DNA from: Candidatus Poseidoniaceae archaeon
GTDB taxonomy: Archaea; Thermoplasmatota; Poseidoniia; Poseidoniales; Poseidoniaceae
Reading direction: 5' to 3'
NCBI GenBank assembly: GCA_965659685.1
Contig: CBFHXB010000007.1
Coordinates: 29,314 to 93,313 of the forward strand
Length of the DNA: 64,000 bases
This document shows positions 22,602-61,281 of this stretch, one piece after another (position 1 is the stretch's first letter; every line of letters begins with the position of its first letter). The position numbers and the translations under genes were made by a program. Below the pieces are notes generated by a model. It saw nothing but the letters and a program-made list of their open reading frames with translations. It was not told where the DNA came from and ran no database searches.

Positions 22602-22644
22602 GACCCGCCCAATGGAAGAGCGGTAATGAAGCAATCGCAGCGGC

Positions 22645-30127: not shown

Positions 30128-30167
30128 CGGGGAAGCCTCATCACAGGGCTTCGCCGCCCTCACCACG

Positions 30168-37534: not shown

Positions 37535-37535
37535 G

Positions 37536-40207: not shown

Positions 40208-40999
40208 ATGCTGGACCTCAAAGGAAAGACGGCCTTCGTGTTTGGAGTGGCGAGCGAAGATTCCATCGCTTGGGCCATCTGCCAACAACTCGCTGCGGCA
40301 GGCTGCACGCTCTACCTTGGCTACCAGAAGCGGTTCATGAGCCGGATTTTCAAGCTCAAGGACCAGTTGCCCTCCATTGGAGGATTCTACCCCCTGGACG
40401 TGGCAGAAGACGCGACCACCAAGGAATTCTTTGATGCGTTTTCCGCGGAACATCCCGGCAAGAAAGCGGACATCCTTGTCCACGCCATTGGCTTTGCACC
40501 TCGCACCTGTTTCGATCGCCCCATCCTCTTCGTCGAAGACGCCGACATCAACACCGCGATGACCATTTCTGCCAACAGCCTCCAGCGCTGCTTGAAGCAC
40601 GCCCTGCCCTACCTCTCCGAGGGCTCCTCGACCATCACGCTGACCTATGCGGCCTCCACCCGGCACGTCCCCTCTTACGGCATCATGAGCATGGCCAAGG
40701 CCGCGCTGGAGTGCTGGACGCGGGAACTCGCCTGCCACCTTGGCCCCGAGGGTCATCGCGTAAACGCCATCTCCTCGGGCCCCATCCGGACCATCGCGGC
40801 GTCGGGCATCCCCGGTTTTGACAACATCCTGGATCACGTGGCGTCAAATGCGCCACTGCGGCGCAACGTCACGCAATCCGACGTGGCGGGAACGACCCTT
40901 TGGTTGGCCAGCCCGCTGTCCGCTGGAGTGACGGGGCAGGTCATCCACGTGGATGCCGGCTATTCGATCACCATGGTTCCAGGAACCATCATGGAGTGA
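40208..40999 (+). CDS. fabI: Enoyl-[acyl-carrier-protein] reductase (NADH), FabI-type SDR
   Basis: FabI hallmarks: GVASEDSIAWAI N-terminus, Y…K active-site region (SYGIMSMAKAALE), SGPIRT motif. The stop lies 9 nt before the megasynthase ATG. Confidence 0.8.
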   Translation: MLDLKGKTAFVFGVASEDSIAWAICQQLAAAGCTLYLGYQKRFMSRIFKLKDQLPSIGGFYPLDVAEDATTKEFFDAFSAEHPGKKADILVHAIGFAPRTCFDRPILFVEDADINTAMTISANSLQRCLKHALPYLSEGSSTITLTYAASTRHVPSYGIMSMAKAALECWTRELACHLGPEGHRVNAISSGPIRTIAASGIPGFDNILDHVASNAPLRRNVTQSDVAGTTLWLASPLSAGVTGQVIHVDAGYSITMVPGTIME

Positions 41000-41008: not shown

Positions 41009-44000
41009 ATGACGATCACCACAGCAGACGGCAAAGAAGTCGGAGGAACCGACCAAGGTCCCTTCGAACCGATCGCAATCATCGGATGCTCGGCGTTGAT
41101 GCCCGATGCTGAAGACACGGCATCGTTCTGGCAGAACATCATCGATGCCCACGTGAGCATCCGCGACCTCCCTGAGGGCCGATGGCCCGGTCCAGTGGAG
41201 CAGTTTTGGGCCGAGGGCGCACCGGGACAAGTCGTAGAGAACAGGACCTACGCCAAGATTGGCGCCTTTGTCGAAGGCTTCGAATTCAACTGGCGCCGCT
41301 GGCGGCAACCTCCCGGGACGCTCCCACAAATCGATCCGTGTCAACTCTGGGCGGTCGAAGTTGCGGCTTCGGCGTTGGAGCACGCAGGCTACGGGGACGA
41401 CGGTCGGCCATTGGACCGCAGCCGCGTGGGTGTGGTCTTTGCGAACGCGCTCGGCGGTGAAAATCGAAACGAATCCAATCAACGGGTGTGGGCCGAGCGC
41501 AACCGCGCCTTGGCCATTGAGGCCGGTTTGCCTGAAGCGTCCAGCGATGCGTTTGTTGCGGCCATGGTGGAGGGTGCTCCCAAAATCACAGAAGACACGA
41601 TGCCGGGAGAACTGGCCAACGTCGTGTCTGGCCGGGTGGCCAATCTGCTTGATTTGCAGGGTCCAAACCACGCGATGGACGCGGCATGTGCCTCTTCCCT
41701 TGCGGCCTTGCTCGATGCATGTCGGCTGCTTCACGCACGCCAAGTGGACGCCATGATTTGCGGTGCATCCGACCGCACCATGGACCCGGCGACCTACGCC
41801 AAGTTCAGCGCCATTGGTGCGCTGTCGCCCAGCCATTCCACGCCGTTCGACGCCCGTGCAAACGGCTTCGTGATGGGCGAAGGTGCTGGCGCGATGGTCC
41901 TGAAACGCCTCAGCGACGCGGTGCGGGACGAGGACGAAATATTCGCCGTCATCCGCGGGATTGGCGGCTCATCGGACGGCCGTGGAAAAGGCATCACCGC
42001 TCCTTCGCAGCGTGGTCAGATTCAGGCCATCGCACGCGCCTACAATCAGGCGGGATATGCGGCTTCGTCCGTCGAGTTGGTCGAAGCTCACGGGACCTCG
42101 ACGAAGGTCGGTGACGCCACAGAATTATCCACGTTGGGCACCTTGTGGACGGGACTTGGCGCCGGGGACCACGTTGCCGTGGGTTCCATCAAGAGCCAAA
42201 TCGGCCACCTGAAGGCGGCCGCAGGCATGGCGGGCTTGCTCAAGGTCACCATGGCCTTGCACCATGCCACCATCCCTCCGAGTGCAGGATTTGAAACGCC
42301 CAATCCTACGGTGGATTGGTCGACGAATCCCTTCTTCGTTCCAACCGAACCAATGGCGTGGCCCAAGCCAGACGGCCACCCACGCCGTGCCGGTGTGAGT
42401 GCCTTCGGCTTCGGGGGAACCAACTTCCACGTTGCCCTCGAAGCCTTCGATCCTGAACTCCACACCAGCATGGGCGCCACCTGGGCGTCGCGTTGGGACG
42501 CATTCACCGGCACGCCCTCCGCTCCCTCGGCAGCCTCCATCCTCGATGCATCGGCGACCCCTTCCCTCGATCATGCCGCCCTGAAGGCGATCGAAGGCGG
42601 TCTCCTGCTGCTGTCGGGCGACAGCGTCGAAGCCGTGTCGGGCCGACTTGCAGGTTTGTCCGTCTCTGGGCCAACCTTCGACGACGATGCTCGCGGCCAC
42701 CGTCTTTCCGCCGTGTTTGCGGATTGGTCGGCCTCCTTTGACCCCAAGGCTTCGGTTCGACTCGCTGTCGTGGCCACGTCGTGGGCCGAATTTGACAAGC
42801 GGAAGGGGTTGGCTGCCTCGTCGCTCGCTGACCCATCGCGTTGGGGCTTCTTGGCCGCTCAAGGCATCATGATCACAGACCAGCCGCCCATGCCGGCTCA
42901 AGCCAAAGTGGCCCACATGTACCCCGGCCAAGGCAGCCAATACGTCGGCATGACGCAAGACCTGTGGCAACGCTTCTCTGCGGTGCAGGACGTGTGGCGA
43001 CTCGCAGACGAGACCATGGTGGAAGTCCTCGACGGCGAAACGCTGTCCTCCTTCGTGTTGCGCAGCAACCTCAGCAAAGAGGAGATGAAAGACGCTGAGG
43101 AGAAACTGAAGCGCACCGAGTACACTCAGCCGGCGATGTTGACGGCCGATTTGGCCATCGAACGTGCGCTCAACGACCACGGCCTCAAGCCGGACATGGT
43201 TGCTGGACATTCCCTCGGTGAATATGCGGCCCTGATGTCGGCGGGCATCATGGACATGGACAGCGCCCTCCGTGCTGCTGCTGCACGTGGCACTGAGATG
43301 GGCTCCGTCGAGATCGACGATCAAGGCCTGATGGCCTCGGTCAGTGCCCCACTTGCGGACGTGGAGCGCATTCTGGAGGGGACCGACGGGTACGTCATTG
43401 CGGCCAACAAGAACTCGCCCAAGATGACGGTCATCGCCGGAGAAACGGCACCCGTCAAGGCCGCAATGGCCGCTTTTGAAGCCGAAAGCATGCCTTGCAC
43501 CGTCCTGCAAACCTCCCACGCCTTCCACTCCAAGATCGTCGCTCCGGCCAACGCGCCGCTGCGCGCCTTCCTCGAGGGATTGGACCTGCAATGGCCCTCG
43601 ATTCCGATCACGGCCAACGTTGACGGGACCTTCTACGCGATGGAGGGCGAGGACGCAAAGACGGCCGTCTTGGAGAAGCTCGCCGGGCAAATGGCCTCCG
43701 CTGTGGAGTGGACCGCCCAGATCGAAACGATGGCCGCCGCAGGTGCGGGAGCCTTCGTCGAAGTCGGGCCGAAGCGGGCGTTGACCGTGTTCGCGTCGCA
43801 GATCCTCGAAGACCGACCGCATCTTGCCGTGATGACCAACCACCCGAAGCAAGGTGGCATCGCCAGTTTCCTCTCCGCACTTGGGATGCTCGCGCTCGCA
43901 GGGCGCGTCCCCTCGCTCCCAAACGGTTCCAGCGACGTGTTGACCGAGGCCTTCCGCGCGGGTCCGACCGAAGCCTGGGCGTCGGCTTCGGCTCAACCGG

Positions 44001-47000
44001 TCCGCTCTTCCGAGGCGCACGAAGACCTTCGTACCCGAGCCCGCCCGTTGCCTTCCAACGGTGGGACCCCAGCCGTTGCGCAGGCCGTGACGACAACGGC
44101 GACGAAACCCGTCGATCCTGCCGAAGCCCTCGCCGCGTACGTCGGCGACCGTCTCGCGGCGTTGTGCGGCTACCCAGCCCGGTTCTGTCGTGGTGCCGTG
44201 GACCTTCGTCTCGGCCTTGGCATGACCGATGCAAGCGTGGCCAGCGTGGTCCAGCGCCTGCGCAGTGAGGCTTCCCTCGATCCAGACGTCGACATCGCTG
44301 GCGCCCAAACTCCAGCAGAGCTCGTTCGCGCCGTCCGAGCCCCACCCGCCGGTTGGATTCCGGCTGCTCCGGCCACGCGCCGCCCAATCACCACCACGGC
44401 CGTCACGAACGCCGTTCACGACCCGATGGCCGACCGGCGTGCCAATCCCTACGTGATCACCGGCGTTTCCTTGGGCTTGCCCGGAGGCGAACGCGTCTTC
44501 GACGAAGACGTGTTTGAGCGTCTCGTCCGCGGTGAAACTTGCATCGAAGAGGTGTCGGATGCGTACAAGCAGGCGCTGCTCGATCGAAACATCGTCCGGT
44601 TGGTCAAGGGTCGAGACGGCTCTGTGGACATGTCTCCGGCGGAAACCTTCGGCGACATCCCACAATTGGCTGGCGTTGCCCACGCGTTTGACCTCGCCGA
44701 AGAATTCGGCGTGGACCCCAAGGCCGTCCTCGCATGGGACATCACGACTCAACTCGCCGTGGCTTCTGGCCTTCTCGCCCTACGGGACGCCGCCATTCCA
44801 CTGACTCCCGAAGAGCAAGTGGGCAAAGGCGGACTCCGTCTCATTCGTGGATGGCAAGTCCCTCAACATCAGCGTGAGCGAACCGGCGTGGTCTTCGCGT
44901 CCTGCTTCCCCGGCACCACCGCTTCCTTTGCGCATGCACGGAACAACGGTGCAGACGCTGACGACGTGTTCGATCGACGCTTCCTGTTCCAAGTTCTGAA
45001 CATGGGCCATGCGCAATTCGCACAGCACACCGGCATCCGCGGACCAAATTCAACCATCAACGTCGCTTGCGCGTCCGCCACGGCTGCGTTTAGCATCGCT
45101 GAAGATTGGCTGGCCAACGACCGTGCAGACCGCGTGGTCATCATTTCCTCGGACAACGTGACCAGCCCAGAATTGTGGTCGTGGATCGGCGCAGGCTTCG
45201 CGGCCTCAGGAGCCGCGTCGTCCAGCAACGTGGTCGAAGAAGCCGCGCTGCCCTTCGACCGCCGCCGCAACGGCTTGATCCTCGGCATGGGGGCCGCCGC
45301 CTTCGTGGTGGAGCGGAACGCCGAAGCCGCAGAACGGGGCGTTCAGCCCTACGCAGAATTGCTCGGGACACGCATGGCCAATTCTGCTTTCCACGGCACC
45401 AGGCTTGACGTGGACCACGTGGCCCAAACCGTGGATGGATTCGTTGGTCAGATGGAGCGGACTTGGGGTCTTGACCGACACAGCATGGCGCCGAACACGG
45501 TGTTCTTCTCCCACGAGACCTACACGCCCGCCCGGGGCGGCTCCGCTCAATCCGAGGTCAAGGCCCTCCGGACCACCTTCGGTGAAAGCACGGACAAGAT
45601 CCTCATTGCGAACACGAAGGGCTTCACCGGCCACCCGATGGGCGTCGGCATCGAGGATGCCAGCATGATCCACGGCCTCCACCATCGCCGCTTCCCGCCC
45701 ATCGCCAACCACAAGGAAGTGGACCCCGAGTTGGGCAACCTCAACCTCAGCAAGGGCGGCAACATCGACGGCATCGAATACGGCATCCGTTTCGGGGCCG
45801 GTTTCGGTTCACAAATCGCCCTCTCCTTGGTCCGTCGGTGGCCTGTCGAAGGGGAACGCGTGAACGGCAAAGCCGTCCTGGCATGGAACCGCCGCTTGGC
45901 GGGGACCAACGACGTGCTGCTTCGTGTCCTTGACAACAAGTTGGTCGCTTACGTCGATGGAGAGAGCAACCTCCACGGTGGCGTTCAAGGTGACGAGTGG
46001 GGTCCAAGTGCGCCCTTCGAGGGGCTTGTTGACGAGCCTGAGGTCGCGCCTGCGCCCGCTCCTGCACCCACACCAACACCTGCGGCTCCTGCACCGGCGC
46101 CCAAGGCGGCTCCAATGGCCGTGGCCAGCGATGACGAGGTCACGGCGGCGATGATCGAGGTCGTCGTTGAGCACACCGGTTATCCGGCAGAATTCATCGA
46201 GATGGATCAAGACCTCGAGGGTGAACTCGGCATTGACACCGTCAAGCAAGCCGAGATTATGGCAGCCCTTCGCGATCGGTTTTCGCTCCCTGTTGACGAA
46301 GACTTCGTGCTTTCCGACCATCCAACGCTCAACCATATGCTCGCGTACCTGACGCGCATGCAAGGTGGCGAGGCGCCTGCCGTGGCAGCACCACGTGACG
46401 TGCCAGCACCCGCTCCGGCACCTGCTCCTGCCCCCGCGAAGACCGAGCCAGCACCCGCTCCGGCACCTGCTCCTGCCCCAGCGGCGGACGCCGGTGACCT
46501 TGTGGACACGGTGGTGGCCGTTGTGGTCGAACACACCGGCTACCCCGCGGACTTCATCGAATTGGACCAAGACCTCGAAGGCGAACTTGGCATTGACACC
46601 GTCAAGCAAGCCGAGATCATGGCGGACATTCGTGCTCGCTTCTCCCTGCCGATCGACGAGGATTTCCTCCTCTCCGACCACCCGACGTTGAACCACATGG
46701 TGGCCTACATTCAGCGCATGACCGGGGGAGATGCACCCGCACCTCCAGCGGCCGCCACAACGCCTGAACCTGCTGCCGCTCCGGCGTCTGCGCCGGCTCA
46801 AGAGCCGGAGGCTGCACCCCCCGCTCCTGCTCCGTCAGGCGACGACGGCTCCATCGCCGCTCGTCTCGTGGAGGTCGTGGTCAAGCACACGGGTTACCCA
46901 GAGGATTTCATTGAACTCGACCAAGACCTCGAAGGTGAACTTGGTATTGACACCGTCAAACAGGCGGAAATCATGGCGGACGTTCGCGCCATTTTCGATC

Positions 47001-49798
47001 TCCCCGTGGACGAAGACTTCCTTCTGTCCGACCACCCAACCCTCAACCACTTCGTCGGCTACGTGGCGAAATTTTCCTCTGGAGGAACGGCAGCGAGCTC
47101 GTCTTCCAAGGAGGATTCAGCGTCGGTCCAAACCCCGGCCCCGGCCTCCACGGTGCAAAAGGTGGCCGAAGGGTGCCGACGTTGGCAGGTGGAGATTGAG
47201 CCGTGCCCTGGCGAGGATGCTCCGCTCAGCCTCTCCGGGCGTGTCCTCGTCACCGAGGACGACTGGGGAATTTCCGTTGCGGTGGCCGAGGAATTGACCT
47301 CCAAAGGCTTCGACGTGGTTCACATCGGATTGGAGCCTGGTGCCAAATCGCACCGGATCCAAGAGGAGGGCGATCGCCTCGTTCACCGGGTTGATCCGGC
47401 ATCTTCCGAACAGATGGATGCCTTCGTCGAAGAACTCGGTGAAGGGCCCATTGCAGGCATGATTCATCTGGCGCCCTTGCGCTTGGCCAGCATGGCATGG
47501 GCGGAAGAATCCGGCCCAAGCCAACAGGTCGTGCTCTCAGGACAAGCATGGTTTGGCTTGCTGAAGGCCCTTGACCAGCGTCTGGGTGCTTTGGATGCCG
47601 GAATCGTTGCTTCGGTCAGCGCCATGGACGGCCGTCACGGAAACCGGGGTGACCGGTTCAACGCCTTGCAAGCCGCGGCCGCTGGCGTGACCAAATCCTA
47701 CGCGCATGAGCGCCCTTCCCTGCGCTGCCGTGCATACGACCTTCACCCTGATCTGCTGATGGACGCCTCGTCCACGGCGGCCCGTCTGGTGGACGACCTG
47801 ATGAACCTCGGTGGCGAGGTGGAAATCGGCCTCGATCGAGCGGGCGAGCGGTGGACCCTTGTCTGCTTTGCAGAGGACCTCGTCGAGGACCACAAGCCCT
47901 TGCTTGAGACCGACGTTTGGCTCGTGTCCGGTGGCGGTTCTGGCGTCACTGCAGCGGCCATCATCGGCGTCGCTGAAGCCTCAAAGGGCGCAGGAGCCTC
48001 CTTCCACCTGCTTGGTCGGACCCCGCTGATGGACCTCACCGAAGGCTGGCTTGAGCACGACGATGCGACCTTGGAAGCCGAGAAGATGGCCCTCCGAGAG
48101 CGCATGATCGAAGCTTCTGCTTCGGGGAAGGTCACGATGGTGGAATGGAACCGCGCGTGGGACCGAATGATGCGCTCCCGGGATGTGCAGCAGACCCTTG
48201 CCACCATCCAAGCGACGGGTAACCTCGCGCAATACCACGCTGTGGACGTCATGAACGCGAAATCCCTGACCAAACTTGGGGCAAACCTTGGTCACGCCAT
48301 CACCGGCGTGGTCCACGGAGCAGGACTTGAGGAAAGCAAACTGGTCGGCGACAAAACCCACGAGGCCTTCGATCGCGTGGTTCGCGTGAAGGTCGACGGA
48401 TGGGCGGCCTTGATGGGCGCTGTGGAAGCATCGGGTGTGCGTCACCCCGCCTTTGCGGCCTGCTTCACTTCGGTGGCTGGACGGTTCGGAAACGGCGGCC
48501 AAACGGATTACGCCGCGGCCAACTCTGTGCTCGACGCTGAGATGGCCCGGTTGACCGCAAGCGGTGCTTGCCGTGCCGTCGCCATCGGATGGACCGGATG
48601 GCGCGACGTCGGCATGGCGACGCGTGGTTCGATCGAAGCGGTGTTCGAAGCCGCGGGCATCGAAACCCTTCCCGTGGACGTCGGTGTGGAGTTGTTCGTG
48701 GGTGAAGCCCTAGCGGGCGGCAAGCGCCGTGTGCTCGGTTGCGGCAGCCTTGGCGCCATGGACACCTTCGACGCCTTCCGAGAAGCGCCTCTGAAATTGC
48801 CTCCAAGCATGGCAGGACTCATCGCCGACCCCCAGCGTTTCCCCTTCATCGACAAGGTGGTGGCCTTTGACCACGACGAGCGCATTGAAACGCAAACGAC
48901 GCTGTCAACGGAGTTGCACCCCTTCTTGGTCGACCACGCCATCGACGGTGTGCCGTATCATCCCGGTGTGATGGCGCTAGAGATGTTTGCACAGAACGCT
49001 CTGCTGCTCAAGCCTGAGACGGCTTTGGCGGGCTTCAAAGACGTCACCTTCGGCTTGCCGGTCAAGATCATGCGTGGGTCGATGACGGTTCGCGTTGAAG
49101 CGTCGGTGGAGTCCTCAAGCGACGGCTTGCACGAGGTGCAGTGCCGCTTGGTCTCAGACCTGATGTCGTCGACCGGCGAGGTGTTCGGGGAACGTGAGCA
49201 CCACCGTGCAGTGGTCCGTTTGGTGGACCAAGCCGAGGACTTGAGCGCCTTCTTTGAGGGTGAACTCGCATCGATGCCGGACACCGGTTTGGCTCCGGCT
49301 CCAGGCGATTTGCTTCACCACCCTTCGTTCATTTACCTCCGCTACTTCCACGGACCGCGCTTCCAAAGCCACGGTGGTGTGCTTCGTGGCGTTCAGCAGG
49401 GTGAATTCTTGGGTGTGGACGGGCTTGCCTTGATGCGGCATCAATTGCCCGCGAGCGACCAATTCGCCATCGAGTCTGAAGGCGAAACCGTGCTCCTGGA
49501 AGCCCTACCAATGCTGATCGAGGCCGGATTCCAGAACGCCGGTTTGGTCGCGATGGAATCCGAAGGGCTGAGCAGCCTGCCGGTCGGCATCGAATGGTCG
49601 ACCGTCCTGCGGGTGCCCGACGAAGGCGAATCCCTACGCATGCGCTCCCTGTGCACCGCCAAGGAAGACGGTGGAATCACCGTTCACGACGTGGTCATTT
49701 TCGGTGAAGAGGATGACCCAGTGCTGGCGCTGCGAGGATTGCGCCTCAAGGGCATGGCTCCCGTCCCCGAAGATCTGGCGGTCACCATCCAACGGTGA
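41009..49798 (+). CDS. Type I polyketide/PUFA-synthase-like megasynthase (2929 aa): KS - AT(malonyl) - ACP-like - KS - 3x tandem ACP - KR - DH
   Basis: Directly read motifs. KS1: GPNHAMDAACASSL (Cys227), EAHGTSTKVGD, GHLKAAAG. AT: GHSLGE (Ser735), HAFH. KS2: GPNSTINVACASA, KGFTGHPMGVG. Three ~75-aa repeats: EHTGYPxxFIExDQDLEGELGIDTVKQAEIM separated by Pro/Ala-rich linkers. KR: VSGGGSGVT Rossmann and YAAAN. PKS-type DH: LVDHAIDGVPYHPG. RBS GGAGTGAGGTGGG lies upstream of ATG 41009. Confidence 0.9.
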   Translation: MTITTADGKEVGGTDQGPFEPIAIIGCSALMPDAEDTASFWQNIIDAHVSIRDLPEGRWPGPVEQFWAEGAPGQVVENRTYAKIGAFVEGFEFNWRRWRQPPGTLPQIDPCQLWAVEVAASALEHAGYGDDGRPLDRSRVGVVFANALGGENRNESNQRVWAERNRALAIEAGLPEASSDAFVAAMVEGAPKITEDTMPGELANVVSGRVANLLDLQGPNHAMDAACASSLAALLDACRLLHARQVDAMICGASDRTMDPATYAKFSAIGALSPSHSTPFDARANGFVMGEGAGAMVLKRLSDAVRDEDEIFAVIRGIGGSSDGRGKGITAPSQRGQIQAIARAYNQAGYAASSVELVEAHGTSTKVGDATELSTLGTLWTGLGAGDHVAVGSIKSQIGHLKAAAGMAGLLKVTMALHHATIPPSAGFETPNPTVDWSTNPFFVPTEPMAWPKPDGHPRRAGVSAFGFGGTNFHVALEAFDPELHTSMGATWASRWDAFTGTPSAPSAASILDASATPSLDHAALKAIEGGLLLLSGDSVEAVSGRLAGLSVSGPTFDDDARGHRLSAVFADWSASFDPKASVRLAVVATSWAEFDKRKGLAASSLADPSRWGFLAAQGIMITDQPPMPAQAKVAHMYPGQGSQYVGMTQDLWQRFSAVQDVWRLADETMVEVLDGETLSSFVLRSNLSKEEMKDAEEKLKRTEYTQPAMLTADLAIERALNDHGLKPDMVAGHSLGEYAALMSAGIMDMDSALRAAAARGTEMGSVEIDDQGLMASVSAPLADVERILEGTDGYVIAANKNSPKMTVIAGETAPVKAAMAAFEAESMPCTVLQTSHAFHSKIVAPANAPLRAFLEGLDLQWPSIPITANVDGTFYAMEGEDAKTAVLEKLAGQMASAVEWTAQIETMAAAGAGAFVEVGPKRALTVFASQILEDRPHLAVMTNHPKQGGIASFLSALGMLALAGRVPSLPNGSSDVLTEAFRAGPTEAWASASAQPVRSSEAHEDLRTRARPLPSNGGTPAVAQAVTTTATKPVDPAEALAAYVGDRLAALCGYPARFCRGAVDLRLGLGMTDASVASVVQRLRSEASLDPDVDIAGAQTPAELVRAVRAPPAGWIPAAPATRRPITTTAVTNAVHDPMADRRANPYVITGVSLGLPGGERVFDEDVFERLVRGETCIEEVSDAYKQALLDRNIVRLVKGRDGSVDMSPAETFGDIPQLAGVAHAFDLAEEFGVDPKAVLAWDITTQLAVASGLLALRDAAIPLTPEEQVGKGGLRLIRGWQVPQHQRERTGVVFASCFPGTTASFAHARNNGADADDVFDRRFLFQVLNMGHAQFAQHTGIRGPNSTINVACASATAAFSIAEDWLANDRADRVVIISSDNVTSPELWSWIGAGFAASGAASSSNVVEEAALPFDRRRNGLILGMGAAAFVVERNAEAAERGVQPYAELLGTRMANSAFHGTRLDVDHVAQTVDGFVGQMERTWGLDRHSMAPNTVFFSHETYTPARGGSAQSEVKALRTTFGESTDKILIANTKGFTGHPMGVGIEDASMIHGLHHRRFPPIANHKEVDPELGNLNLSKGGNIDGIEYGIRFGAGFGSQIALSLVRRWPVEGERVNGKAVLAWNRRLAGTNDVLLRVLDNKLVAYVDGESNLHGGVQGDEWGPSAPFEGLVDEPEVAPAPAPAPTPTPAAPAPAPKAAPMAVASDDEVTAAMIEVVVEHTGYPAEFIEMDQDLEGELGIDTVKQAEIMAALRDRFSLPVDEDFVLSDHPTLNHMLAYLTRMQGGEAPAVAAPRDVPAPAPAPAPAPAKTEPAPAPAPAPAPAADAGDLVDTVVAVVVEHTGYPADFIELDQDLEGELGIDTVKQAEIMADIRARFSLPIDEDFLLSDHPTLNHMVAYIQRMTGGDAPAPPAAATTPEPAAAPASAPAQEPEAAPPAPAPSGDDGSIAARLVEVVVKHTGYPEDFIELDQDLEGELGIDTVKQAEIMADVRAIFDLPVDEDFLLSDHPTLNHFVGYVAKFSSGGTAASSSSKEDSASVQTPAPASTVQKVAEGCRRWQVEIEPCPGEDAPLSLSGRVLVTEDDWGISVAVAEELTSKGFDVVHIGLEPGAKSHRIQEEGDRLVHRVDPASSEQMDAFVEELGEGPIAGMIHLAPLRLASMAWAEESGPSQQVVLSGQAWFGLLKALDQRLGALDAGIVASVSAMDGRHGNRGDRFNALQAAAAGVTKSYAHERPSLRCRAYDLHPDLLMDASSTAARLVDDLMNLGGEVEIGLDRAGERWTLVCFAEDLVEDHKPLLETDVWLVSGGGSGVTAAAIIGVAEASKGAGASFHLLGRTPLMDLTEGWLEHDDATLEAEKMALRERMIEASASGKVTMVEWNRAWDRMMRSRDVQQTLATIQATGNLAQYHAVDVMNAKSLTKLGANLGHAITGVVHGAGLEESKLVGDKTHEAFDRVVRVKVDGWAALMGAVEASGVRHPAFAACFTSVAGRFGNGGQTDYAAANSVLDAEMARLTASGACRAVAIGWTGWRDVGMATRGSIEAVFEAAGIETLPVDVGVELFVGEALAGGKRRVLGCGSLGAMDTFDAFREAPLKLPPSMAGLIADPQRFPFIDKVVAFDHDERIETQTTLSTELHPFLVDHAIDGVPYHPGVMALEMFAQNALLLKPETALAGFKDVTFGLPVKIMRGSMTVRVEASVESSSDGLHEVQCRLVSDLMSSTGEVFGEREHHRAVVRLVDQAEDLSAFFEGELASMPDTGLAPAPGDLLHHPSFIYLRYFHGPRFQSHGGVLRGVQQGEFLGVDGLALMRHQLPASDQFAIESEGETVLLEALPMLIEAGFQNAGLVAMESEGLSSLPVGIEWSTVLRVPDEGESLRMRSLCTAKEDGGITVHDVVIFGEEDDPVLALRGLRLKGMAPVPEDLAVTIQR
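41066..42442 (+). other. Ketosynthase domain 1 (KS1) of megasynthase; active-site Cys codon TGT at 41687-41689
   Basis: Motifs listed above; ends with AFGFGGTNFHVALE. Confidence 0.85.
42914..43813 (+). other. Acyltransferase domain (malonyl-CoA specific); Ser codon TCC at 43211-43213
   Basis: GQGSQ…GHSLGE…HAFH; approximate borders. Confidence 0.8.
44111..44338 (+). other. ACP-like helical domain between AT and KS2 (LGLGMTDASVASVVQRL)
   Basis: Resembles the PKS ACP LGxDSLxAVEL core with a DAS motif; assignment tentative. Confidence 0.35.
44450..45838 (+). other. Ketosynthase domain 2 (KS2), retains Cys and both His motifs
   Basis: YVITGVSLGLPGG start, INVACASATAAF, FFSHETYTP, KGFTGHPMGVG, GAGFGSQIALSL end. 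Confidence 0.75.
46130..47068 (+). repeat. Three tandem ~340-bp direct repeats encoding ACP domains (46130-46354, 46502-46717, 46847-47068), each with Thr (ACC) at the canonical Ser position of the LGID(S) motif
   Basis: Nucleotide repeats ~85-90% identical. Thr codons read at 46238-46240, 46598-46600 and 46952-46954. Confidence 0.85.
47906..48613 (+). other. Ketoreductase domain (SDR); catalytic Tyr codon TAC at 48509-48511
   Basis: VSGGGSGVTAAAIIG…YAAAN. Confidence 0.75.
48821..49795 (+). other. PKS-type dehydratase (double hotdog) domain
   Basis: HxxxGxxxxP motif LVDHAIDGVPYHPG in the first hotdog half. Confidence 0.65.
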
Positions 49799-50580
49799 TG
49801 CCGATGGAACGTGTCGTGCCGGAGTGGTCCGGCCTCGGGGTGCCGGTTCACCTCGTCCACCTTGCTCCGCTTCCGGCAACCCTTCCCGGACAGGACGATG
49901 GGTTGCCAGCCTTGGTGGATCCCGAGGAGTGGTCCACGTTCAAGACCGATAAACGACGTGTGGAGCATCTGGGGGGGCGTCTTCTTTTGGCGGCCTCGAT
50001 GGACGCTTGGTGGCGCATGCACCGCTTCCTTGGACGCGTGGATGAACTGGACGTGGTCCGGGATGCACATCGCGCTCCATACTTGCGTTGGCGCTCAGGC
50101 GTGTGGAGGCAGGCGCCGCTTCCTGGTCTCTCCATCGGTCACAGTGAAGGGCGTGCTGTGGTCGGTTTGGTGGCACCCGGTTGGAGCATCGGCGTCGACG
50201 CTGAACCCGCCGACCGCCGCATCGCCGAGGGCGCATGGGACATGTTTGCCTCTGCGGAGGAACGGGCCTCCTTTGACGGGAACCCGAAGGCTGCATTGCG
50301 GGCTTGGGTGACCAAGGAGGCCGTTCAGAAGGCCTTGGGCTTGGGCATGCACCTGAATCCTCGGCACATCGTTCCGGACGGCAACCGTTTCGTTCACGAC
50401 GGGGCCACGGTGGACCTCAGTTGGTTGGAGTCAGACGGGATGCTTGTTTGCGTGGCCTTGGCTCCGGGTCGTGCACCGCCGTCAACGCCAGAGGACGCCG
50501 TCCTGGAAGCGACGAAGGCGGCGATGGACGAGGACCCAGCGTGGGGCGTGGGGTGCAAAACCACACGGAACTTGTGTTGA
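49798..50580 (+). CDS. 4'-phosphopantetheinyl transferase (Sfp/EntD type)
   Basis: GVDAE…WVTKEAVQKALG motifs. ATG 49798-49800 overlaps the megasynthase TGA (TGATG), indicating translational coupling. Confidence 0.75.
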   Translation: MPMERVVPEWSGLGVPVHLVHLAPLPATLPGQDDGLPALVDPEEWSTFKTDKRRVEHLGGRLLLAASMDAWWRMHRFLGRVDELDVVRDAHRAPYLRWRSGVWRQAPLPGLSIGHSEGRAVVGLVAPGWSIGVDAEPADRRIAEGAWDMFASAEERASFDGNPKAALRAWVTKEAVQKALGLGMHLNPRHIVPDGNRFVHDGATVDLSWLESDGMLVCVALAPGRAPPSTPEDAVLEATKAAMDEDPAWGVGCKTTRNLC

Positions 50581-52002
50581 TCAACCGACGTTCCGGATTT
50601 CCGGCGTTTGGTCGGCAAAGAGGAACTCCAGCATGGCCGCCCACATGACGAACTCGATGCTTTCCTCCAGCTTGTCTTGGCCACCAACCACGTCCATCAT
50701 GTTCTCGAGCGTGTCGGAGGGGGAGTGGTAAGCGTCGTAGTCGTCGTCGTATGCACCGAGGTGGAAGATGGTCTGAGCGCCCAAGTCACGGAAGGTGACG
50801 TGGTCGCTTCGTCCGAAGGTGTCCTCATGAACGTCCATGACCAAATCCGAGTGGTTGTCCCAATGTTGGTCGCAACCTGCGCCGTAACTGCCGTCAATCC
50901 TCAGGTCCATGGGCGCTTTCAGGACGTTGCGGTGCACGTGGTCCAGGATGCTGGTGATGGCCACGTCCTGCTCGTCGGGATCGATGTCAGGGCCGGACCA
51001 TGCATGGTAGGGGTAGGGCTCGCCGGTGGGCTTGATGGCGGGCCATGAAATGCCCATCATGTCCATGTTGATGTAGAAGCGGAGTTCCTTGTCTTGAGGT
51101 AGGCAGTAGCCACAATCGTTGGTGGCAAATGCATTCGAACCGCGCAACCCTTCCTCCTCGGACGACCAGAGCGCGAGGAAGGTGTCGCATTCCACCTCAA
51201 GCTCTGCGAGGACCTTGGCATAGAGCATCATCGTCACCGTGCCAGCAGTGTTGTCGTAGGCACCTTCGTGGGTGCCACCGCCAGGAGGTCCACCGGGGGG
51301 CGCGATGTCCATGTGGCCGCCCATGCCTTGGACGCAGGAGTCGTCACGGCCATCCTTCCACGCAATGACGTTCAACGATTCTGGCTGGCTTGGATTGAGA
51401 TGGTCGGTCACCCGAAGCATGTAGGTGCGGTAGCCGAGGCTCTCGAAGTGGCCTTGGAAGTAGGCGGCTCCACGCTCGTAGGCTGGATTTCCGGCGCCCA
51501 TCCAGCGGTCGTTGTAACCGCCGCATTCCGCAGACGGACGTCCGTCAACGACGGGGTCGCAGGTGATGTAGTCCATCTTCTCGAACCACTCTTGGCCGTT
51601 GACGATCGGCGTGCCGTTCGCCACGGGCAACTCAAAGGTCGTCTTCCTGCCGTTTTGGTCGTAAATCGTCAGGACCACTTCCTCCGTGTAGGGTGTGGTC
51701 AGGAGGCGGAAGGCCAGGCGATCGCCGTCCACGGGCACTGAACTGTCCAAATCCATCGAACCGTTCACGAACAAAAACACGTCATGGGCCGGTGCGGAGA
51801 GCCGCAATCCTTCGCCGATGAGCAGCAGGTCGTGCCATTCGCCAAGGAGGACGGTGACGTCGGTGGCCGGCAAGCCGTCGATGGTCAAGGTGGCATCGGC
51901 GTCGATGACTTCCTCCTCCGGCGTACCGCCAATGCAGCCAGACAGGGGCCCAAGGAGCATGAGCGCGATGAGCAAGAGTGCGGAAGACATCTTCGCTGCC
52001 AT
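50581..52002 (-). CDS. Secreted M28-family Zn aminopeptidase lipoprotein
   Basis: Signal plus lipobox (LLGPLSGC). M28 metal ligands (H…D…EE…D…H pattern; …WSSEEEGLRGS…). Confidence 0.7.
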   Translation of the reverse strand: MAAKMSSALLLIALMLLGPLSGCIGGTPEEEVIDADATLTIDGLPATDVTVLLGEWHDLLLIGEGLRLSAPAHDVFLFVNGSMDLDSSVPVDGDRLAFRLLTTPYTEEVVLTIYDQNGRKTTFELPVANGTPIVNGQEWFEKMDYITCDPVVDGRPSAECGGYNDRWMGAGNPAYERGAAYFQGHFESLGYRTYMLRVTDHLNPSQPESLNVIAWKDGRDDSCVQGMGGHMDIAPPGGPPGGGTHEGAYDNTAGTVTMMLYAKVLAELEVECDTFLALWSSEEEGLRGSNAFATNDCGYCLPQDKELRFYINMDMMGISWPAIKPTGEPYPYHAWSGPDIDPDEQDVAITSILDHVHRNVLKAPMDLRIDGSYGAGCDQHWDNHSDLVMDVHEDTFGRSDHVTFRDLGAQTIFHLGAYDDDYDAYHSPSDTLENMMDVVGGQDKLEESIEFVMWAAMLEFLFADQTPEIRNVG

Positions 52003-52107: not shown

Positions 52108-52179
52108 GCGGATATGGTGAAGTGGTTATCATCTGAGGTTTCCAACCTTATGTCGTGGGTTCGACTCCCGCTATCCGCA
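52108..52179 (+). tRNA. tRNA-Gly (anticodon TCC)
   Basis: Manually folded cloverleaf. Acceptor stem GCGGATA/TATCCGC, anticodon stem TGAGG/CCTTA with loop TTTCCAA (TCC), T-arm GGGTTCGACTCCC, discriminator A. No encoded CCA. Confidence 0.85.
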
Positions 52180-52193
52180 CTCAGCCTTGCAGT

Positions 52194-52216: not shown

Positions 52217-55200
52217 CTACTGCGGTGGCCGTTGGTTTAGGCCAGGAATGCCTTGTGGTGGCGGTGGAGTTGACGACACTGGAGGGGCCGTTCTCCGGCG
52301 CTCCAACAAGGCCATGGCGAGGGCTTCACGCTCTTCCTGCCAGCGGGTCCGGATGCGCCGTCCTCGCACGAGCATCCCGAGGAGCAAGACGATGAGCAAG
52401 ACTTGTCCGAGGGCCACTTGACCACGTTCGTCGTCGACCCACCATGACACATCGGTCCACGCGGTTTGGGTGGGTGCATCGACCTCCAACAACCGGCTGT
52501 CGATGACCTCGACCTTCAGCGTCACGTCGTCCATGGCAGCGTTGCTGCCGGGTTCGAGCACCGTGATCACCAGATCGATCGGCACGGTGCGGGCCACTTC
52601 CGTTTGGAACCAGAGGGTTGCGTTCTCCGCTTCTGGCGTGATGACCACGGTTTGGGAGCGCGCTCCTCCGAAGAGATCGGCTCCGCCGTCCCACGTGACG
52701 CGTGCGGTCACTGGAACTTGCATCTCATGGGTGACCGTGCATGTGAAGGCAAACTTCGGCCCAACGGCGAGGTCGACCACGGGGTCCACCAGTTCACAGG
52801 CCAGGCTGGCTTCGGCGATGTTCCGAGTGGCATCTTGCGGCCAGTGGTCGGGCGATTCGGCGCCGAGGGCGTTGTTATCACCGTATCCGTCGCCGTCGCT
52901 GTCCACGTGCTGTGTCGGAAGGTCTGGGAAGGCGTCTTCGGTGTCGGCCCATCCGTCCTCGTCGCGGTCCACGCACCCAAGGACGCCCGCTTGACTGGAC
53001 GCACCGGCCTCGTTCGGGCAGTCGTCAGACACGGCGGTTCCTGTTTGGTCCGCAAAGCCGTCCCCGTCTTGGTCCGACCAAACCGAACCGTCAGAAGGCC
53101 ACGGGTCGTTTTCGTCGCTCTGACCGTCGCCGTCGCTGTCAGGGCATCCGTAGCGGTCGAGGGTCGAGGTCCCGGACGTGCCAGGGCAGGCATCGGGTTG
53201 TTCCCCGGACGCCAGGTCGCCGTAGCCGTCGTCGTCCGAATCGCCAATCTGCGTGGGATCGTTCGGGAATTCATCACCCTCATCCGACGCTCCGTCTCCG
53301 TCGCTGTCCGGGCAACCGAAGCGGTCGTAGGTGGACGCGCCGGCCACCGTTGGGCAGGCATCGGGCTGCTCGCCGCTGGCGTTGTCGCCGTATCCGTCGC
53401 CGTCTTGGTCCGCGAATTGAGTGGGATCGTTCGGGAAGGGGTCGGCGCCGGCGTCAAGCCGGACTTCGCCGATGCCGTTCTCGCCGGCTTGGGCGTCGGC
53501 GACACCGTCGCCGTCAGCATCAGGGCAACCGGTCACCGGGCTGGTTGAGGTTCCGGCCAAGGCGGGGCAACCGTCGCTTGGGTCGTCGATTCCGTCGCCG
53601 TCGGTGTCCGCGGTTCGGCTTGGATCATTCGGGAAGGCGTCCCCTAGATCTGAGACGCCATCGCCGTCAGCGTCGGGGCATCCGTAGCGGTCAACGGTCG
53701 AGGTTCCGGATGCTCCGGGGCAGGCATCAGGTTGGGGACCTGTGGCGTTGTCGCCGTACCCGTCACCGTCTTGATCCGACCACTGCGAAGGCAGGTTTGG
53801 GAGCACGTCAATGGCGTCGTCCCACCCGTCACCGTCCGTATCTGGGCAACCATAACGGTTGGCTGCGGTGGAGTTTCCTGGCACGCTCGGGCAAGCGTCG
53901 GGCATGGTGCCGCCGGAGTTGTCGAAGTAACCGTCGCCGTCCGAATCGGCCCATTGGGTCCCGTCGTTGGGTGCTTGGTCTTCAGCGTTCGACCATCCGT
54001 CACCGTCCGTGTCTGGGCAACCAAGCGTCCCGTTCTGCCATGACGCGCCCGCTTCCGTGGGGCAGGCGTCCGGAAGGGTTCCGGTGGCGTTGTCGCCGTA
54101 CCCGTCTCCGTCCTGATCGACCCACTGGGTCCCGTCCATGACGAATGCATCGGCCCCGTCCGCGACGGTCCACACGCCGTCGGGATCCGACCAACCGTCG
54201 CTGTCCCTGTCTGGACATCCCTGCCGGTCCATGGAGGAGGTTCCTGCCGCGTTCGGGCAGGCGTCGTCGATGGTGTCGTCGTATCCGTCGCCATCGGTGT
54301 CCGCCCATCGCGATGCATCGCTTGGGAAGGCGTCAGCTCCGTCGAGCAAGGTCCAGCCTGCATCCTCATCGGAGTATCCGTCGCCGTCGGTGTCTGGGCA
54401 ACCCGAGCGGTCAACGGTTGACGTTCCCGTGACGCCTGGGCATGCGTCTCCTGAGGTGCCTGACGGGTTATCGCCGAATCCATCGTTGTCTGCGTCCACC
54501 CATTGGGTGGCATCGGACGGCCATTGGTCGGCTCCTTGGGCCACCGTCCAGCCGCTGTCCGCATCCGAGTAGCCGTCTCCGTCGGTGTCGGGGCATCCAA
54601 GCCTGTCGTTGGACGATGTTCCTGCCGTGCTGGGACAGCCGTCAGGATTGACGCCGGCGGAGTTGTCGCCGTACCCGTCCAGATCGCTGTCGGCCCATTG
54701 GGTCGATTCGTAGGGGAAGGAATCGTCAACATCAGCCCAGCCGTCTCCGTCGCTGTCGGGACATCCCAAACGGTTGGCTTCGGTTGAGGTCCCGGGCACG
54801 GTTGGACAAGCGTCGGGTTGTGTTCCGGTGGCGTTGTCGCCGTATCCGTCTCCGTCCTGATCGGCCCATTGTGTTCCGTCGTTTGGGAAAGCATCAGCGC
54901 CTTCAGCGGTTCCAAATCCGGCGTCTGGATCAGAATAGGTGTCGCCGTCTGTGTCCGGGCAACCGAGCCGGTCCGCCGACGAGTCACCGAACTGGCTTGG
55001 GCAACCGTCTGGGTCGGTTGCTGGGGCAGGATTGTCTCCGAAACCGTCACCGTCGCTGTCGGACCACTGGGTGGCGTCCCCGAGGAAAGCGTCCGCTCCG
55101 TCACCGACGACCCACGCGCTGCCGTTCGAGGCATCTGAGCCCGTTGGGTCCGGATCCGATGCGCCGTCGCCGTCCTCGTCGGCACACCCGTTCCGGTCCC

Positions 55201-57799: not shown

Positions 57800-57915
57800 G
57801 GCGTTTGGTTGTGCTGAACCCTCATCAAGCATTGGTTGAATCTGAAGGGTTGAACACGAGCGTTGAAAGGCCATTCCCAGAACGGAAGCCCATGCGTGGC
57901 CGGGGCGGTGGGGAC

Positions 57916-61168: not shown

Positions 61169-61281
61169 GTTCTGCCGTGGTGGTTCCCCTCTTAGAATTG
61201 CGGCTCACTTCGCAGGACTCCGCCCCTGCGTCCGGTGATGTTCATAAGCCGTCGAAGGAGCAAGGCAAATCAGGTCATAGC

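What the first reader, a model, noticed from the sequence alone, without database searches (positions are those of the whole stretch)
41009..49798. Unusual two-KS domain order: KS-AT(malonyl, HAFH)-ACP-like-KS-ACP3-KR-DH in one polypeptide with a trans FabI
Canonical PfaA is KS-AT-ACPn-KR-DH with a single KS, and the KS/CLF pair sits on a separate protein. Here a second KS that retains the active-site Cys (INVACASA) and both His motifs follows an ACP-like helical domain. This suggests a bimodular or load-and-extend arrangement without a second AT (AT sharing). Enoyl reduction is supplied by a separately encoded FabI-type SDR rather than a PfaD-like FMN enoyl reductase. This looks like a minimal, differently wired PUFA/PKS hybrid.
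Basis: partly seen in the sequence, partly recalled or inferred. Interest (0 to 1): 0.6.

Follow-up and report, generated by a model that had tools for sequence, protein, structure and literature searches.

The report
Archaeal two-ketosynthase fatty-acid-type megasynthase operon
A marine Group II archaeon carries a bacterial-style three-gene operon (FabI reductase, a giant two-ketosynthase synthase, and its activating enzyme) that could build fatty-acid-like chains. The type was catalogued in bacteria in 2011 and never characterised. Its carrier domains have threonine where every textbook carrier protein has serine.

Summary
ORF 41009-49798 encodes a 2929-aa protein with the order KS1, malonyl-AT, ACP-like domain, KS2, three ACPs, KR, DH. 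A FabI gene lies 10 nt upstream, and a PPTase gene overlaps the stop codon.

KS2 is a complete FabF-like ketosynthase. Its Cys, two His and Lys are invariant in 76 of 76 homologues, so it is not a chain-length factor.

The wiring is not new. It matches the uncharacterised "Type R" secondary-lipid synthase of Shulse & Allen (2011).

- **Host:** the window is archaeal (Poseidoniales, Marine Group II), and the operon is conserved across both families of the order.
- **Carrier residue:** the ACPs carry Thr, not Ser, at the phosphopantetheine site in almost all homologues, archaeal and bacterial.
- **Reductase swap:** in most bacterial relatives an acyl-CoA-dehydrogenase-like gene occupies FabI's position.

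Best reading: an iterative, self-contained, ACP-dependent fatty-acyl synthase acquired once from bacteria. The product is unknown.

The parts
40208..40999 (+). fabI-like enoyl reductase gene. The mechanical ORF starts at TTG 40151. The likely start is ATG 40208, which follows a GGAGG.
   Evidence: Pfam adh_short_C2 at 7.7e-70. The best NCBIfam hits are all FabI, but score 227 bits against a cut-off of 391. Y-x6-K motif 'SYGIMSMAK'. It lies immediately upstream of the synthase in 47 archaeal loci.
41009..49798 (+). Megasynthase ORF, 2929 aa: KS1-AT-degenerate ACP-KS2-ACP x3-psiKR/KR-DH
41066..42454 (+). KS1, type I PKS/PfaA-like ketosynthase (Cys227, His362, His400)
   Evidence: Pfam. TIGR02813 PfaA positions 8-466. 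The nearest solved structures are type I PKS KS-AT didomains.
42905..43828 (+). Acyltransferase with malonyl-type motifs GQGSQ, GHSLGE, HAFH
   Evidence: Pfam Acyl_transf_1 and NCBIfam FabD at 1.6e-57. Motif positions.
44102..44371 (+). Degenerate ACP-like domain (aa 1032-1121) with no attachment residue ('LGLGMTDAS')
   Evidence: Confident helical bundle in the model. hhalign against the family ACP profile: probability 95.7%, E = 9.8e-9. The site column is variable. No Pfam hit.
44429..45838 (+). KS2, a divergent FabF-like ketosynthase with Cys1354, His1502, Lys1537 and His1542 intact
   Evidence: Invariant in 76 of 76 homologues. Foldseek top hits are FabF, TM 0.87-0.88. NCBIfam fabF 134 bits. 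Only 22.6% identical to KS1.
45839..45958 (+). Small conserved alpha/beta element after KS2 (aa 1611-1650), function unknown
   Evidence: Model elements H601-612, E617-622, E625-630, mean pLDDT about 90. Conserved W..WL / LEV..R.LRV columns.
46124..46378 (+). ACP1, with attachment site Thr1744 (LGIDTVK)
   Evidence: Pfam PP-binding. The Thr aligns with the phosphopantetheinyl Ser of solved ACPs.
46484..46738 (+). ACP2, with attachment site Thr1864
46838..47092 (+). ACP3, with attachment site Thr1982
47171..48778 (+). Ketoreductase: structural psi-KR half plus catalytic half (GGGSGVT, DYAAAN)
   Evidence: Pfam KR at 1.3e-23. Weak SDR hits in the psi-KR half. Motifs.
48806..49795 (+). PKS-type dehydratase (HxxxGxxxxP = HAIDGVPYHP)
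   Evidence: Pfam PKS_DH_N at 1.2e-7. Motif.
49795..50580 (+). Phosphopantetheinyl transferase gene. Its start (GTG 49795 or ATG 49798) overlaps the synthase's TGA.
   Evidence: Pfam ACPS 37.9 bits against a cut-off of 25. Junction sequence. Found downstream in 37 archaeal loci and several bacterial ones.

Best explanation
fabI, the synthase gene and the PPTase gene form a tightly coupled operon. Together they encode a self-contained, iterative, ACP-dependent fatty-acyl ('secondary lipid') synthase of the Shulse & Allen 'Type R' kind.

**Proposed cycle (inferred from domain content):**
1. The single malonyl-type AT loads the three tandem ACPs.
2. Two catalytically competent ketosynthases condense on the same ACPs: KS1 (type I PKS/PfaA-like) and KS2 (FabF-like). 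They probably divide the work by chain length or by priming versus elongation, as the two KS of PUFA synthases do.
3. KR and the PKS-type DH process each beta-keto group.
4. The separately encoded FabI reduces the enoyl intermediate in trans.
5. The dedicated PPTase activates the ACPs, whose acceptor residue is Thr.

The ACP-like domain between AT and KS2 is a relic carrier and is now structural.

**Origin.** The system entered the archaeal lineage once from bacteria and has been inherited vertically throughout Poseidoniales.

**Shown versus inferred.**
- *Shown:* domain identities, catalytic residues, conservation, synteny, phylogenetic pattern.
- *Inferred:* iterativity, division of labour between the KS, FabI partnership, Thr phosphopantetheinylation, and the product. 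The product is probably a saturated or little-unsaturated long acyl chain, possibly for G3P-based lipids.
For: **Domain set.** Every activity of a fatty-acid elongation cycle is present in three adjacent genes.

**Operon structure.** The fabI stop and the synthase ATG are 10 nt apart. The synthase TGA overlaps the PPTase start.

**KS2.** The catalytic tetrad is invariant in 76 of 76 homologues, and the fold is a full FabF fold.

**Tandem ACPs.** Near-identical tandem ACPs with a single AT, KR and DH are the PfaA-like iterative layout. KS1 matches the PfaA model TIGR02813.

**Conservation of the trio.**
- The same trio is present in 55 species-level Poseidoniales genomes of both families.
- It recurs in a different archaeal genomic context, L081.
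- It recurs in a high-GC bacterium with a single-KS version, L083.
- So the three genes travel as a unit.

**Trans reductase.** Most bacterial Type R loci have an acyl-CoA-dehydrogenase-like gene (often with EtfAB) exactly where FabI sits. Many also have a single-chain acetyl-CoA carboxylase downstream. Both fit a trans enoyl-reduction step and a dedicated malonyl-CoA supply.

**Single acquisition.** Archaeal KS1 and KS2 are each monophyletic and mirror the MGIIa/MGIIb split.

**Carrier site.** It is always a hydroxyl residue:
- Thr in 207 locus-derived ACPs, using all four Thr codons.
- Ser in both ACPs of two archaeal lineages.
Against: - No product, expression or biochemical data were obtained here.
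- No thioesterase or acyltransferase domain is present for chain release. The nearest candidate, a 4HBT thioesterase at 29618-30259, is about 11 kb away and unlinked.
- E. coli ACP S36T cannot be phosphopantetheinylated (PMC3340395). Thr as acceptor is therefore unproven and would need an adapted PPTase.
- Bacteria with Type R also have ordinary FAS II, so there the system makes something 'secondary'. The same could be true in the archaeon.
- The NJ trees have no support values.
- FabI scores below NCBIfam equivalog cut-offs.
Confidence: 0.6

Rival explanations
1. Bimodular, non-iterative PKS. KS1-AT-ACP* acts as a loading or first module. It hands a chain to KS2-ACP3-KR-DH, and the single AT is shared.
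For: The domain order reads like two modules. A few bacterial homologues (L056, L059, L064; P0030, P0040) carry a genuine LGIDTV ACP between AT and KS2, so an ancestral two-carrier arrangement is plausible.
Against: - In all archaeal copies the middle domain has no conserved Ser or Thr at the site: D/E/T/P/G.
- Most bacterial homologues have only a 50-130 aa linker there.
- Three near-identical tandem ACPs with one reductive set are typical of iterative PfaA-like enzymes.
- A two-condensation product would not need FabI, ACC or this degree of conservation.
Confidence: 0.1
2. KS2 is a chain-length-factor-like, non-condensing partner of KS1, as the 'CLF' label in the Type R description implies.
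For: Shulse & Allen annotate this position as CLF. KS2 is very divergent: Pfam barely detects it, and it is 22.6% identical to KS1.
Against: - Cys, His, His and Lys are invariant in 76 of 76 homologues.
- Known CLFs lack the active-site Cys (my own knowledge of type II PKS and PfaC).
- The best structural matches are active FabF enzymes.
- KS2 is separated from KS1 by AT and another domain, unlike adjacent KS-CLF pairs.
Confidence: 0.08
3. A specialised secondary-metabolite PKS, as genome-mining tools would call it. On this reading it makes a niche polyketide rather than a core lipid building block.
For: It would be called T1PKS or PUFA-like by BGC miners. PKS transcripts from Thermoplasmatota MAGs have been reported in BGC surveys (PMC9902471). 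Bacterial hosts also have FAS II.
Against: - It is conserved, with vertical phylogeny, across both families of an order with small genomes.
- There are no tailoring genes in the conserved block. The neighbours are TBP, a TatD-like hydrolase and peptidases.
- A full reductive set plus FabI points to a saturated chain.
Confidence: 0.15
4. Bacterial contamination or a chimeric assembly. On this reading the synthase is not really archaeal.
For: All components are of bacterial type. One close protein hit is labelled Flavobacteriales (P0004).
Against: - The same contig carries Cdc6/Orc1, PCNA, TBP, an HTH_10 regulator and an archaeal-type dephospho-CoA kinase.
- GC and GC3 are uniform across the window.
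- The same synteny appears in 55 independent MAGs, a single-cell genome (L032, AG-404-K16) and contigs up to 1.5 Mb.
Confidence: 0.01

Closest known systems
'Type R' secondary lipid synthase cluster (Shulse & Allen 2011, PLoS One, PMC3098273). Described in Koribacter, Solibacter, Elusimicrobium and Roseiflexus. Product unknown.
   Same: - One pfaA homologue with KS-MAT-second KS-fold-ACP(3-6)-KR, followed by a PPTase gene.
- The window's PPTase has the hShxH (LSIGH) motif that the paper reports for Types M-T.
- Bacterial relatives found here come from the same groups (Korobacteraceae, Bryobacteraceae, Roseiflexaceae).
- Those relatives show the ACC gene between synthase and PPTase that the paper noted in Koribacter.
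   Different: - The host is an archaeon.
- FabI replaces the acyl-CoA-dehydrogenase-like gene that sits upstream in most bacterial loci.
- There is no adjacent ACC.
- A degenerate ACP lies between AT and KS2.
- The paper calls the second KS a CLF and does not list the C-terminal DH, the upstream reductase gene or the Thr carrier site.
PfaA of bacterial PUFA synthases (pfaABCDE; NCBIfam TIGR02813)
   Same: KS-MAT ... tandem ACPs-KR-PKS-type DH on one polypeptide, with a dedicated PPTase. KS1 matches the PfaA model.
   Different: - Scores 868 bits against a cut-off of 1010.
- A second KS is inserted before the ACPs.
- No PfaB, PfaC (KS-CLF-FabA-type DH) or PfaD (FMN ER) genes.
- The ER is FabI.
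- The ACP site is Thr, not the LGIDS Ser.
Type II FAS components FabF and FabI
   Same: KS2 has the FabF fold and catalytic residues. The upstream gene is a FabI-type SDR with Y-x6-K.
   Different: KS2 is embedded in a megasynthase, shares only about 22% identity with FabF, and has an extended N-terminal half. FabI scores below all equivalog cut-offs. No free ACP, FabH, FabD, FabG or FabZ lies nearby.
Single-KS relative FabI-[KS-AT-ACP-KR-DH]-PPTase (locus L083, a high-GC bacterium)
   Same: Homologous FabI (58% identity), KS1 (53%), AT, Thr-ACP (LGIDTVKQAEV), KR, DH and PPTase (39%), in the same gene order. Its KS1 is sister to the archaeal clade.
   Different: It lacks KS2 and the tandem ACPs, and has 2101 aa rather than 2929.

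Membership tests
PfaA (PUFA synthase subunit A, TIGR02813) | Whole-protein score at or above the curated cut-off | tested here: not met
   868.4 bits against a cut-off of 1010.1
PfaA (PUFA synthase subunit A, TIGR02813) | A single KS, followed by MAT and then directly by tandem ACPs | tested here: not met
   A second complete KS (aa 1141-1610) and a degenerate ACP lie between AT and the ACPs
PfaA (PUFA synthase subunit A, TIGR02813) | Partner genes pfaB, pfaC (KS-CLF-FabA-type DH) and pfaD (FMN enoyl reductase) in the cluster | tested here: not met
   Pfam scans of the window's main ORFs found none. The only neighbouring pathway genes are FabI and the PPTase.
PfaA (PUFA synthase subunit A, TIGR02813) | ACP attachment motif with Ser (LGIDS) | tested here: not met
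   LGIDT in all three ACPs. The Thr aligns with the Ser of solved ACPs.
Type R secondary lipid synthase (Shulse & Allen 2011) | One pfaA homologue with KS-MAT-second KS-fold ('CLF')-ACP(3-6)-KR | tested here: met
   KS1-AT-(ACP*)-KS2-ACP x3-KR(-DH). Description.
Type R secondary lipid synthase (Shulse & Allen 2011) | PPTase gene directly downstream | tested here: met
   49795-50580, Pfam ACPS, overlapping the synthase stop codon
Type R secondary lipid synthase (Shulse & Allen 2011) | PPTase carries the P1b' motif hShxH rather than (F/S)NxSH | tested here: met
   'LSIGH' in the window PPTase, visible in the alignment. Motif definition from the paper.
Type R secondary lipid synthase (Shulse & Allen 2011) | Sequence relatedness to the named members (Koribacter, Solibacter, Elusimicrobium, Roseiflexus) | tested here: inconclusive
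   The named strains were not among the retrieved loci. MAGs of Korobacteraceae (L072), Bryobacteraceae (L079, L080) and Roseiflexaceae (P0033) share 47-50% identity in KS2 and the same domain order. The ACC gene between synthase and PPTase, as described for Koribacter, is seen in L058, L076 and L078.
Chain length factor (KS-fold partner without catalytic Cys) | Loss of the active-site Cys | tested here: not met
   Cys1354, His1502, His1542 and Lys1537 are invariant in 76 of 76 homologues
Modular (multi-module) type I PKS | Each module has its own functional carrier domain | tested here: not met
   The middle ACP-like domain lacks a conserved Ser or Thr at the site, and most bacterial homologues have only a short linker there
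Canonical acyl carrier protein (Pfam PP-binding) | Conserved Ser at the start of helix II as phosphopantetheine acceptor | tested here: not met
   Thr in 3 of 3 ACPs here, in 79 of 79 ACPs in protein hits, and in 207 of 209 in loci. Ser occurs only in L047 and L081.
Canonical acyl carrier protein (Pfam PP-binding) | Actual 4'-phosphopantetheinylation | not testable with these tools
   Needs mass spectrometry of the ACPs co-expressed with the PPTase
FabI enoyl-ACP reductase | SDR fold of the FabI subfamily with the Tyr-x6-Lys catalytic pair | tested here: met
   adh_short_C2 at 7.7e-70; 'SYGIMSMAK'
FabI enoyl-ACP reductase | Score above an NCBIfam FabI equivalog cut-off | tested here: not met
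   The best is PRK07370, 226.8 bits against a cut-off of 391

The most novel reading that the evidence does not exclude
Poseidoniales are abundant marine archaea. Published work says they lack the G1P-backbone enzyme but have G3P dehydrogenase and PlsC-like acyltransferases. On this reading they make their own fatty acyl chains with a vertically inherited, ACP-dependent type-I-like fatty acid synthase (FabI plus the KS-AT-KS-ACP3-KR-DH protein plus a PPTase). The carrier domains of this whole synthase family would be phosphopantetheinylated on threonine, a linkage not known for any carrier protein and excluded in E. coli ACP. If so, this operon would be the missing biosynthetic basis for 'mixed' membranes in an archaeon, and a new variant of a universal post-translational modification.
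Probability: 0.25. Interest if true: 0.85.

Novelty: new variant of a known kind. Interest (0 to 1): 0.62.

Why it matters
**Archaeal fatty acid synthesis.** Archaea are generally said to lack ACP, ACP synthase and both FAS I and FAS II (bioRxiv 10.1101/2024.07.05.601840). What lipids Marine Group II archaea make is an open question that bears on ocean lipid proxies and on the 'lipid divide' (PMC6461757, PMC6962369).

Here a compact three-gene operon holds every activity of a fatty-acid elongation cycle. It is conserved across the order. That makes the question directly testable by heterologous expression.

**Carrier-protein chemistry.** The near-universal Thr at the carrier site of this large family (archaea and many bacterial phyla) contradicts the textbook Ser requirement. 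It deserves a biochemical test.

**The bacterial relatives.** The bacterial context suggests what the long-uncharacterised Type R system is. The acyl-CoA-dehydrogenase-like gene with EtfAB in FabI's position, plus a single-chain ACC, point to a stand-alone fatty-acyl synthase with an exchangeable trans enoyl reductase.

Tried and rejected
- **Whole-protein homologue search.** I used the mid+KS2 segment instead.
- **A motif I first misread.** I took 'VG[IL]DALR' for an Ala-containing middle ACP in bacteria. It lies inside KS2's N-terminal part, and I withdrew the claim (note).
- **Ser-ACPs and loss of the PPTase.** I tested whether the one MGIIb lineage with Ser-ACPs (L047) had lost the dedicated PPTase. 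It has not: a 255-aa homologue is present at 26% identity. So there is no covariation.
  - MGII or Poseidoniales with PKS, FAS or fatty acid biosynthesis.
  - 'GIDTVK'.
  - Thr instead of Ser in carrier proteins.
  - Type R follow-ups.

  Nothing beyond the 2011 catalogue and generic BGC surveys turned up. Villanueva et al. 2017 and the Beld et al. PPTase review are not held.
- **Pfam on conserved neighbours.** The neighbours u272 and u446 gave nothing lipid-related. I treat them, TBP and the TatD-like gene as ordinary synteny and not part of the system.
- **A FabI homologue with a different context.** P0234 sits next to a 2184-aa protein with no Pfam hit, in a different lipid-like cluster. 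No DNA was available, so I did not pursue it.
- **No reference-based KS phylogeny.** I did not build one with PfaA, PfaC, HglE and CLF because no reference sequences were available in the sandbox. Profile and structure matches were used instead.
Full report
**1. The observation**

The ORF 41009-49798 (+) is real and encodes 2929 aa. Pfam finds, in order:
- an N-terminal ketosynthase with its C-terminal extension (aa 20-482);
- an acyltransferase (637-935);
- a second weak ketoacyl-synt stretch;
- three PP-binding domains;
- a KR (2389-2533);
- a PKS-type dehydratase (2614-2706).

The gene immediately upstream is a FabI-type SDR. Its Tyr-x6-Lys pair is present, and its likely start is ATG 40208. 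The fabI stop and the synthase ATG are 10 nt apart. The three genes therefore look like one translationally coupled operon.

**2. The second ketosynthase**

KS2 (aa 1141-1610) shares only 22.6% identity with KS1, and its best family match is FabF.
- In 76 full-length homologues, the Cys, both His and the Lys that align with KS1's catalytic residues are invariant.
- An AlphaFold model of aa 1020-1700, built on 80 homologues, has mean pLDDT 86.6.
- Its KS part superposes on E. coli and P. aeruginosa FabF with target-normalised TM 0.87-0.88.
- KS1-AT is instead closest to type I PKS KS-AT didomains and to the PfaA model.

So KS2 is a bona fide ketosynthase by every sequence and fold criterion available, and not a chain-length factor. 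The two KS are anciently diverged: one is type-I-like and the other type-II-like.

**3. The domain between AT and KS2**

- Pfam detects nothing in aa 1020-1140, even at E = 1.
- The model shows a confident helical bundle there (helices at model residues 18-34, 55-68 and 83-89; pLDDT 89-97).
- A profile of 16 archaeal copies matches the profile of the family's own ACPs (probability 95.7%, E = 9.8e-9, 74 columns).
- In that alignment, the column corresponding to the attachment residue is D, E, T, P or G.
- A few bacterial homologues carry a genuine ACP with LGIDTV at this position (L056, L059, L064, P0030, P0040).
- Most bacterial homologues have only a 50-130-aa linker with a short conserved helix.

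That removes the basis for a two-module, load-and-extend mechanism.

**4. Where the window comes from**

The best hits to the mid+KS2 segment are from Candidatus Poseidoniales / Marine Group II MAGs. The window itself carries archaeal genes:
- Cdc6/Orc1 (12984-14321);
- PCNA (61081-62022);
- a TBP-like gene (37350-38075);
- an HTH_10 regulator;
- a PPAT fused to the archaeal-type dephospho-CoA kinase domain DUF359 (16067-17089).

GC and GC3 are uniform across the window. A scan of one genome per species matched at least 578 genomes. 55 of the best 80 loci are Poseidoniales of both families, and they include a single-cell genome and contigs up to 1.5 Mb. Contamination is therefore excluded.

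**5. Conservation and evolution**

All archaeal loci keep the same domain order and the fabI-synthase-PPTase trio.
- NJ trees of KS2 and KS1 put the archaeal sequences in one clade that splits into MGIIa and MGIIb. This clade is separate from the bacterial sequences. The trees carry no support values.
- A further archaeal contig (L081) has different neighbours: ribosomal proteins S27e and L44e, and eIF2-alpha. It has the same trio.
- A high-GC bacterial contig (L083) has FabI-[KS-AT-ACP-KR-DH]-PPTase with one KS. Its KS1 is sister to the archaeal clade.

The trio thus behaves as a unit. It was most likely acquired once by the ancestor of these archaea.

**6. What it corresponds to in the literature**

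Shulse & Allen (2011, PMC3098273) defined 'Type R' secondary lipid synthases as one pfaA homologue with KS-MAT-CLF-ACP(3-6)-KR followed by a PPTase gene.
- They found it in Koribacter, Solibacter, Elusimicrobium and Roseiflexus.
- The product is unknown.
- In Koribacter, an ACC gene lies between the two genes.

The bacterial relatives retrieved here come from the same groups and have the same order. In several of them a single-chain acetyl-CoA carboxylase of about 1900 aa lies between synthase and PPTase. The window's PPTase also has the hShxH motif that the paper reports for Types M-T.

I could not compare directly with the named strains. The architecture is therefore catalogued, not new. The 'CLF' label is contradicted by the conserved catalytic residues. 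My ten literature searches found no functional follow-up and no description of the archaeal members. Published work says only that:
- MGII lacks the G1P-backbone enzyme;
- archaea in general lack ACP, ACP synthase, FAS I and FAS II.

**7. The enoyl reductase**

Most bacterial loci with upstream sequence have a highly conserved acyl-CoA-dehydrogenase-like gene of about 555 aa immediately upstream of the synthase (56-87% identity across phyla). It is often preceded by an Fe-S/CCG oxidoreductase, EtfB and EtfA. In the archaea, and in L083, FabI occupies exactly that position.

Both enzyme types act on the enoyl/acyl thioester couple. I infer a non-orthologous exchange of the trans-acting enoyl reductase. 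It remains an inference.

**8. The threonine carrier site**

All three ACPs read LGIDTVK. The Thr aligns with the phosphopantetheinylated Ser of PigH ACPs, the S. coelicolor FAS ACP and AcpM.
- The same Thr is present in 79 of 79 ACPs in the protein hits.
- It is present in 207 of 209 tandem ACPs in the fetched loci (134 archaeal, 73 bacterial). All four Thr codons are used.
- The exceptions have Ser in both ACPs. They are L047, nested inside MGIIb and so a reversion, and L081.
- L047 keeps the PPTase.

The site is therefore always a hydroxyl residue, with Thr strongly preferred. That fits a functional acceptor. In E. coli, ACP S36T cannot be modified and is non-functional (PMC3340395). I found no report of Thr-ACPs, but my literature access is incomplete.

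**9. Mechanism proposed**

1. The malonyl-type AT loads the tandem ACPs.
2. KS1 and KS2 both condense, with a division of labour by chain length or priming. This is by analogy with the two KS of PUFA synthases, from my own knowledge, and is not tested here.
3. KR, the PKS-type DH and trans FabI complete each cycle.
4. The dedicated PPTase activates the Thr-ACPs.

There is no FabA-type dehydratase/isomerase, so a saturated or simply modified chain is expected. Chain release is unexplained. The operon has no TE or acyltransferase, and the only thioesterase-like gene in the window (4HBT, 29618-30259) is about 11 kb away.

**10. Verdict**

The locus is an archaeal, FabI-linked variant of a known but uncharacterised family.

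Its interest lies elsewhere:
- the host, because it would make an ACP-dependent fatty-acyl synthase a conserved feature of Marine Group II archaea;
- the Thr carrier site;
- what the bacterial context reveals about Type R systems.

Noticed in passing
Bacterial loci L057-L080 (e.g. L067:1301-6923 and L067:15556-21255): Most bacterial Type R loci have an acyl-CoA-dehydrogenase-like gene of about 555 aa immediately upstream of the synthase. It is 56-87% identical across phyla, which is more conserved than the synthase itself. It is often preceded by Fe-S(CCG)-EtfB-EtfA. A single-chain acetyl-CoA carboxylase of about 1900 aa (BC-BCCP-central-CT) lies downstream, before the PPTase. The 2011 description does not mention the dehydrogenase or ETF genes.
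   Followed up: partly
L047:6546 and 6915; L081:10786-18900: Two archaeal lineages have Ser instead of Thr at the carrier site, in both of their ACPs (GVDSVK, GIDSIK). L047 is nested inside MGIIb. L081 is a more distant archaeal contig (GC 0.49) with different neighbours.
   Followed up: yes
L083:10001-17881: A high-GC (0.73) bacterial contig carries FabI-[KS-AT-ACP(Thr)-KR-DH, 2101 aa, one KS]-PPTase. This is a single-KS relative of the archaeal operon. L084 shows a similar set preceded by a fatty-acid desaturase gene.
   Followed up: partly
window 45839-45958 (aa 1611-1650): A small, confidently modelled helix plus beta-hairpin element follows KS2. It has conserved W..WL and LEV..R.LRV columns in archaea and bacteria. 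No family match; function unknown.
   Followed up: no
window 16067-17089 (-): Fusion of a cytidylyltransferase-like (PPAT-type) domain with DUF359, the archaeal GTP-dependent dephospho-CoA kinase family. That would combine the last two steps of CoA synthesis in one protein. CoA is the donor for the PPTase.
   Followed up: no
window 8850-10334 (-) and 29618-30259 (-): A biotin carboxylase, possibly part of an acyl-CoA carboxylase that supplies malonyl-CoA, and a 4HBT-family thioesterase, a possible chain-release enzyme. Both are in the window but are not adjacent to the operon.
   Followed up: no
window 30900-36737 (+) and 52217-57874 (-): Two giant ORFs. One is 1945 aa with no Pfam match. The other is 1885 aa with an S8 subtilase domain, next to an M28 peptidase (50581-52002). 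tblastn finds the M28 peptidase downstream of the operon in many Poseidoniales loci, and the S8 protein beyond it in a few (L001, L002, L042, L047).
   Followed up: no
window 784-3487, 21735-22634: An aldehyde dehydrogenase and two enoyl-CoA hydratases. These fit the fatty-acid degradation capacity reported for MGII. Synthesis and degradation genes thus coexist in the same 64 kb.
   Followed up: no
window 52108-52180 (+): tRNA-Gly (TCC), the only RNA gene detected in the window.
   Followed up: yes
Contig of P0234 (JGI 3300067032; no DNA available): A FabI homologue (58% identity) sits directly upstream of a 2184-aa protein with no Pfam hit on record. The surrounding cluster has a B12-radical SAM enzyme, a methyltransferase, an AMP-ligase, a free ACP, a fatty-acid desaturase and a hydrolase.
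   Followed up: no
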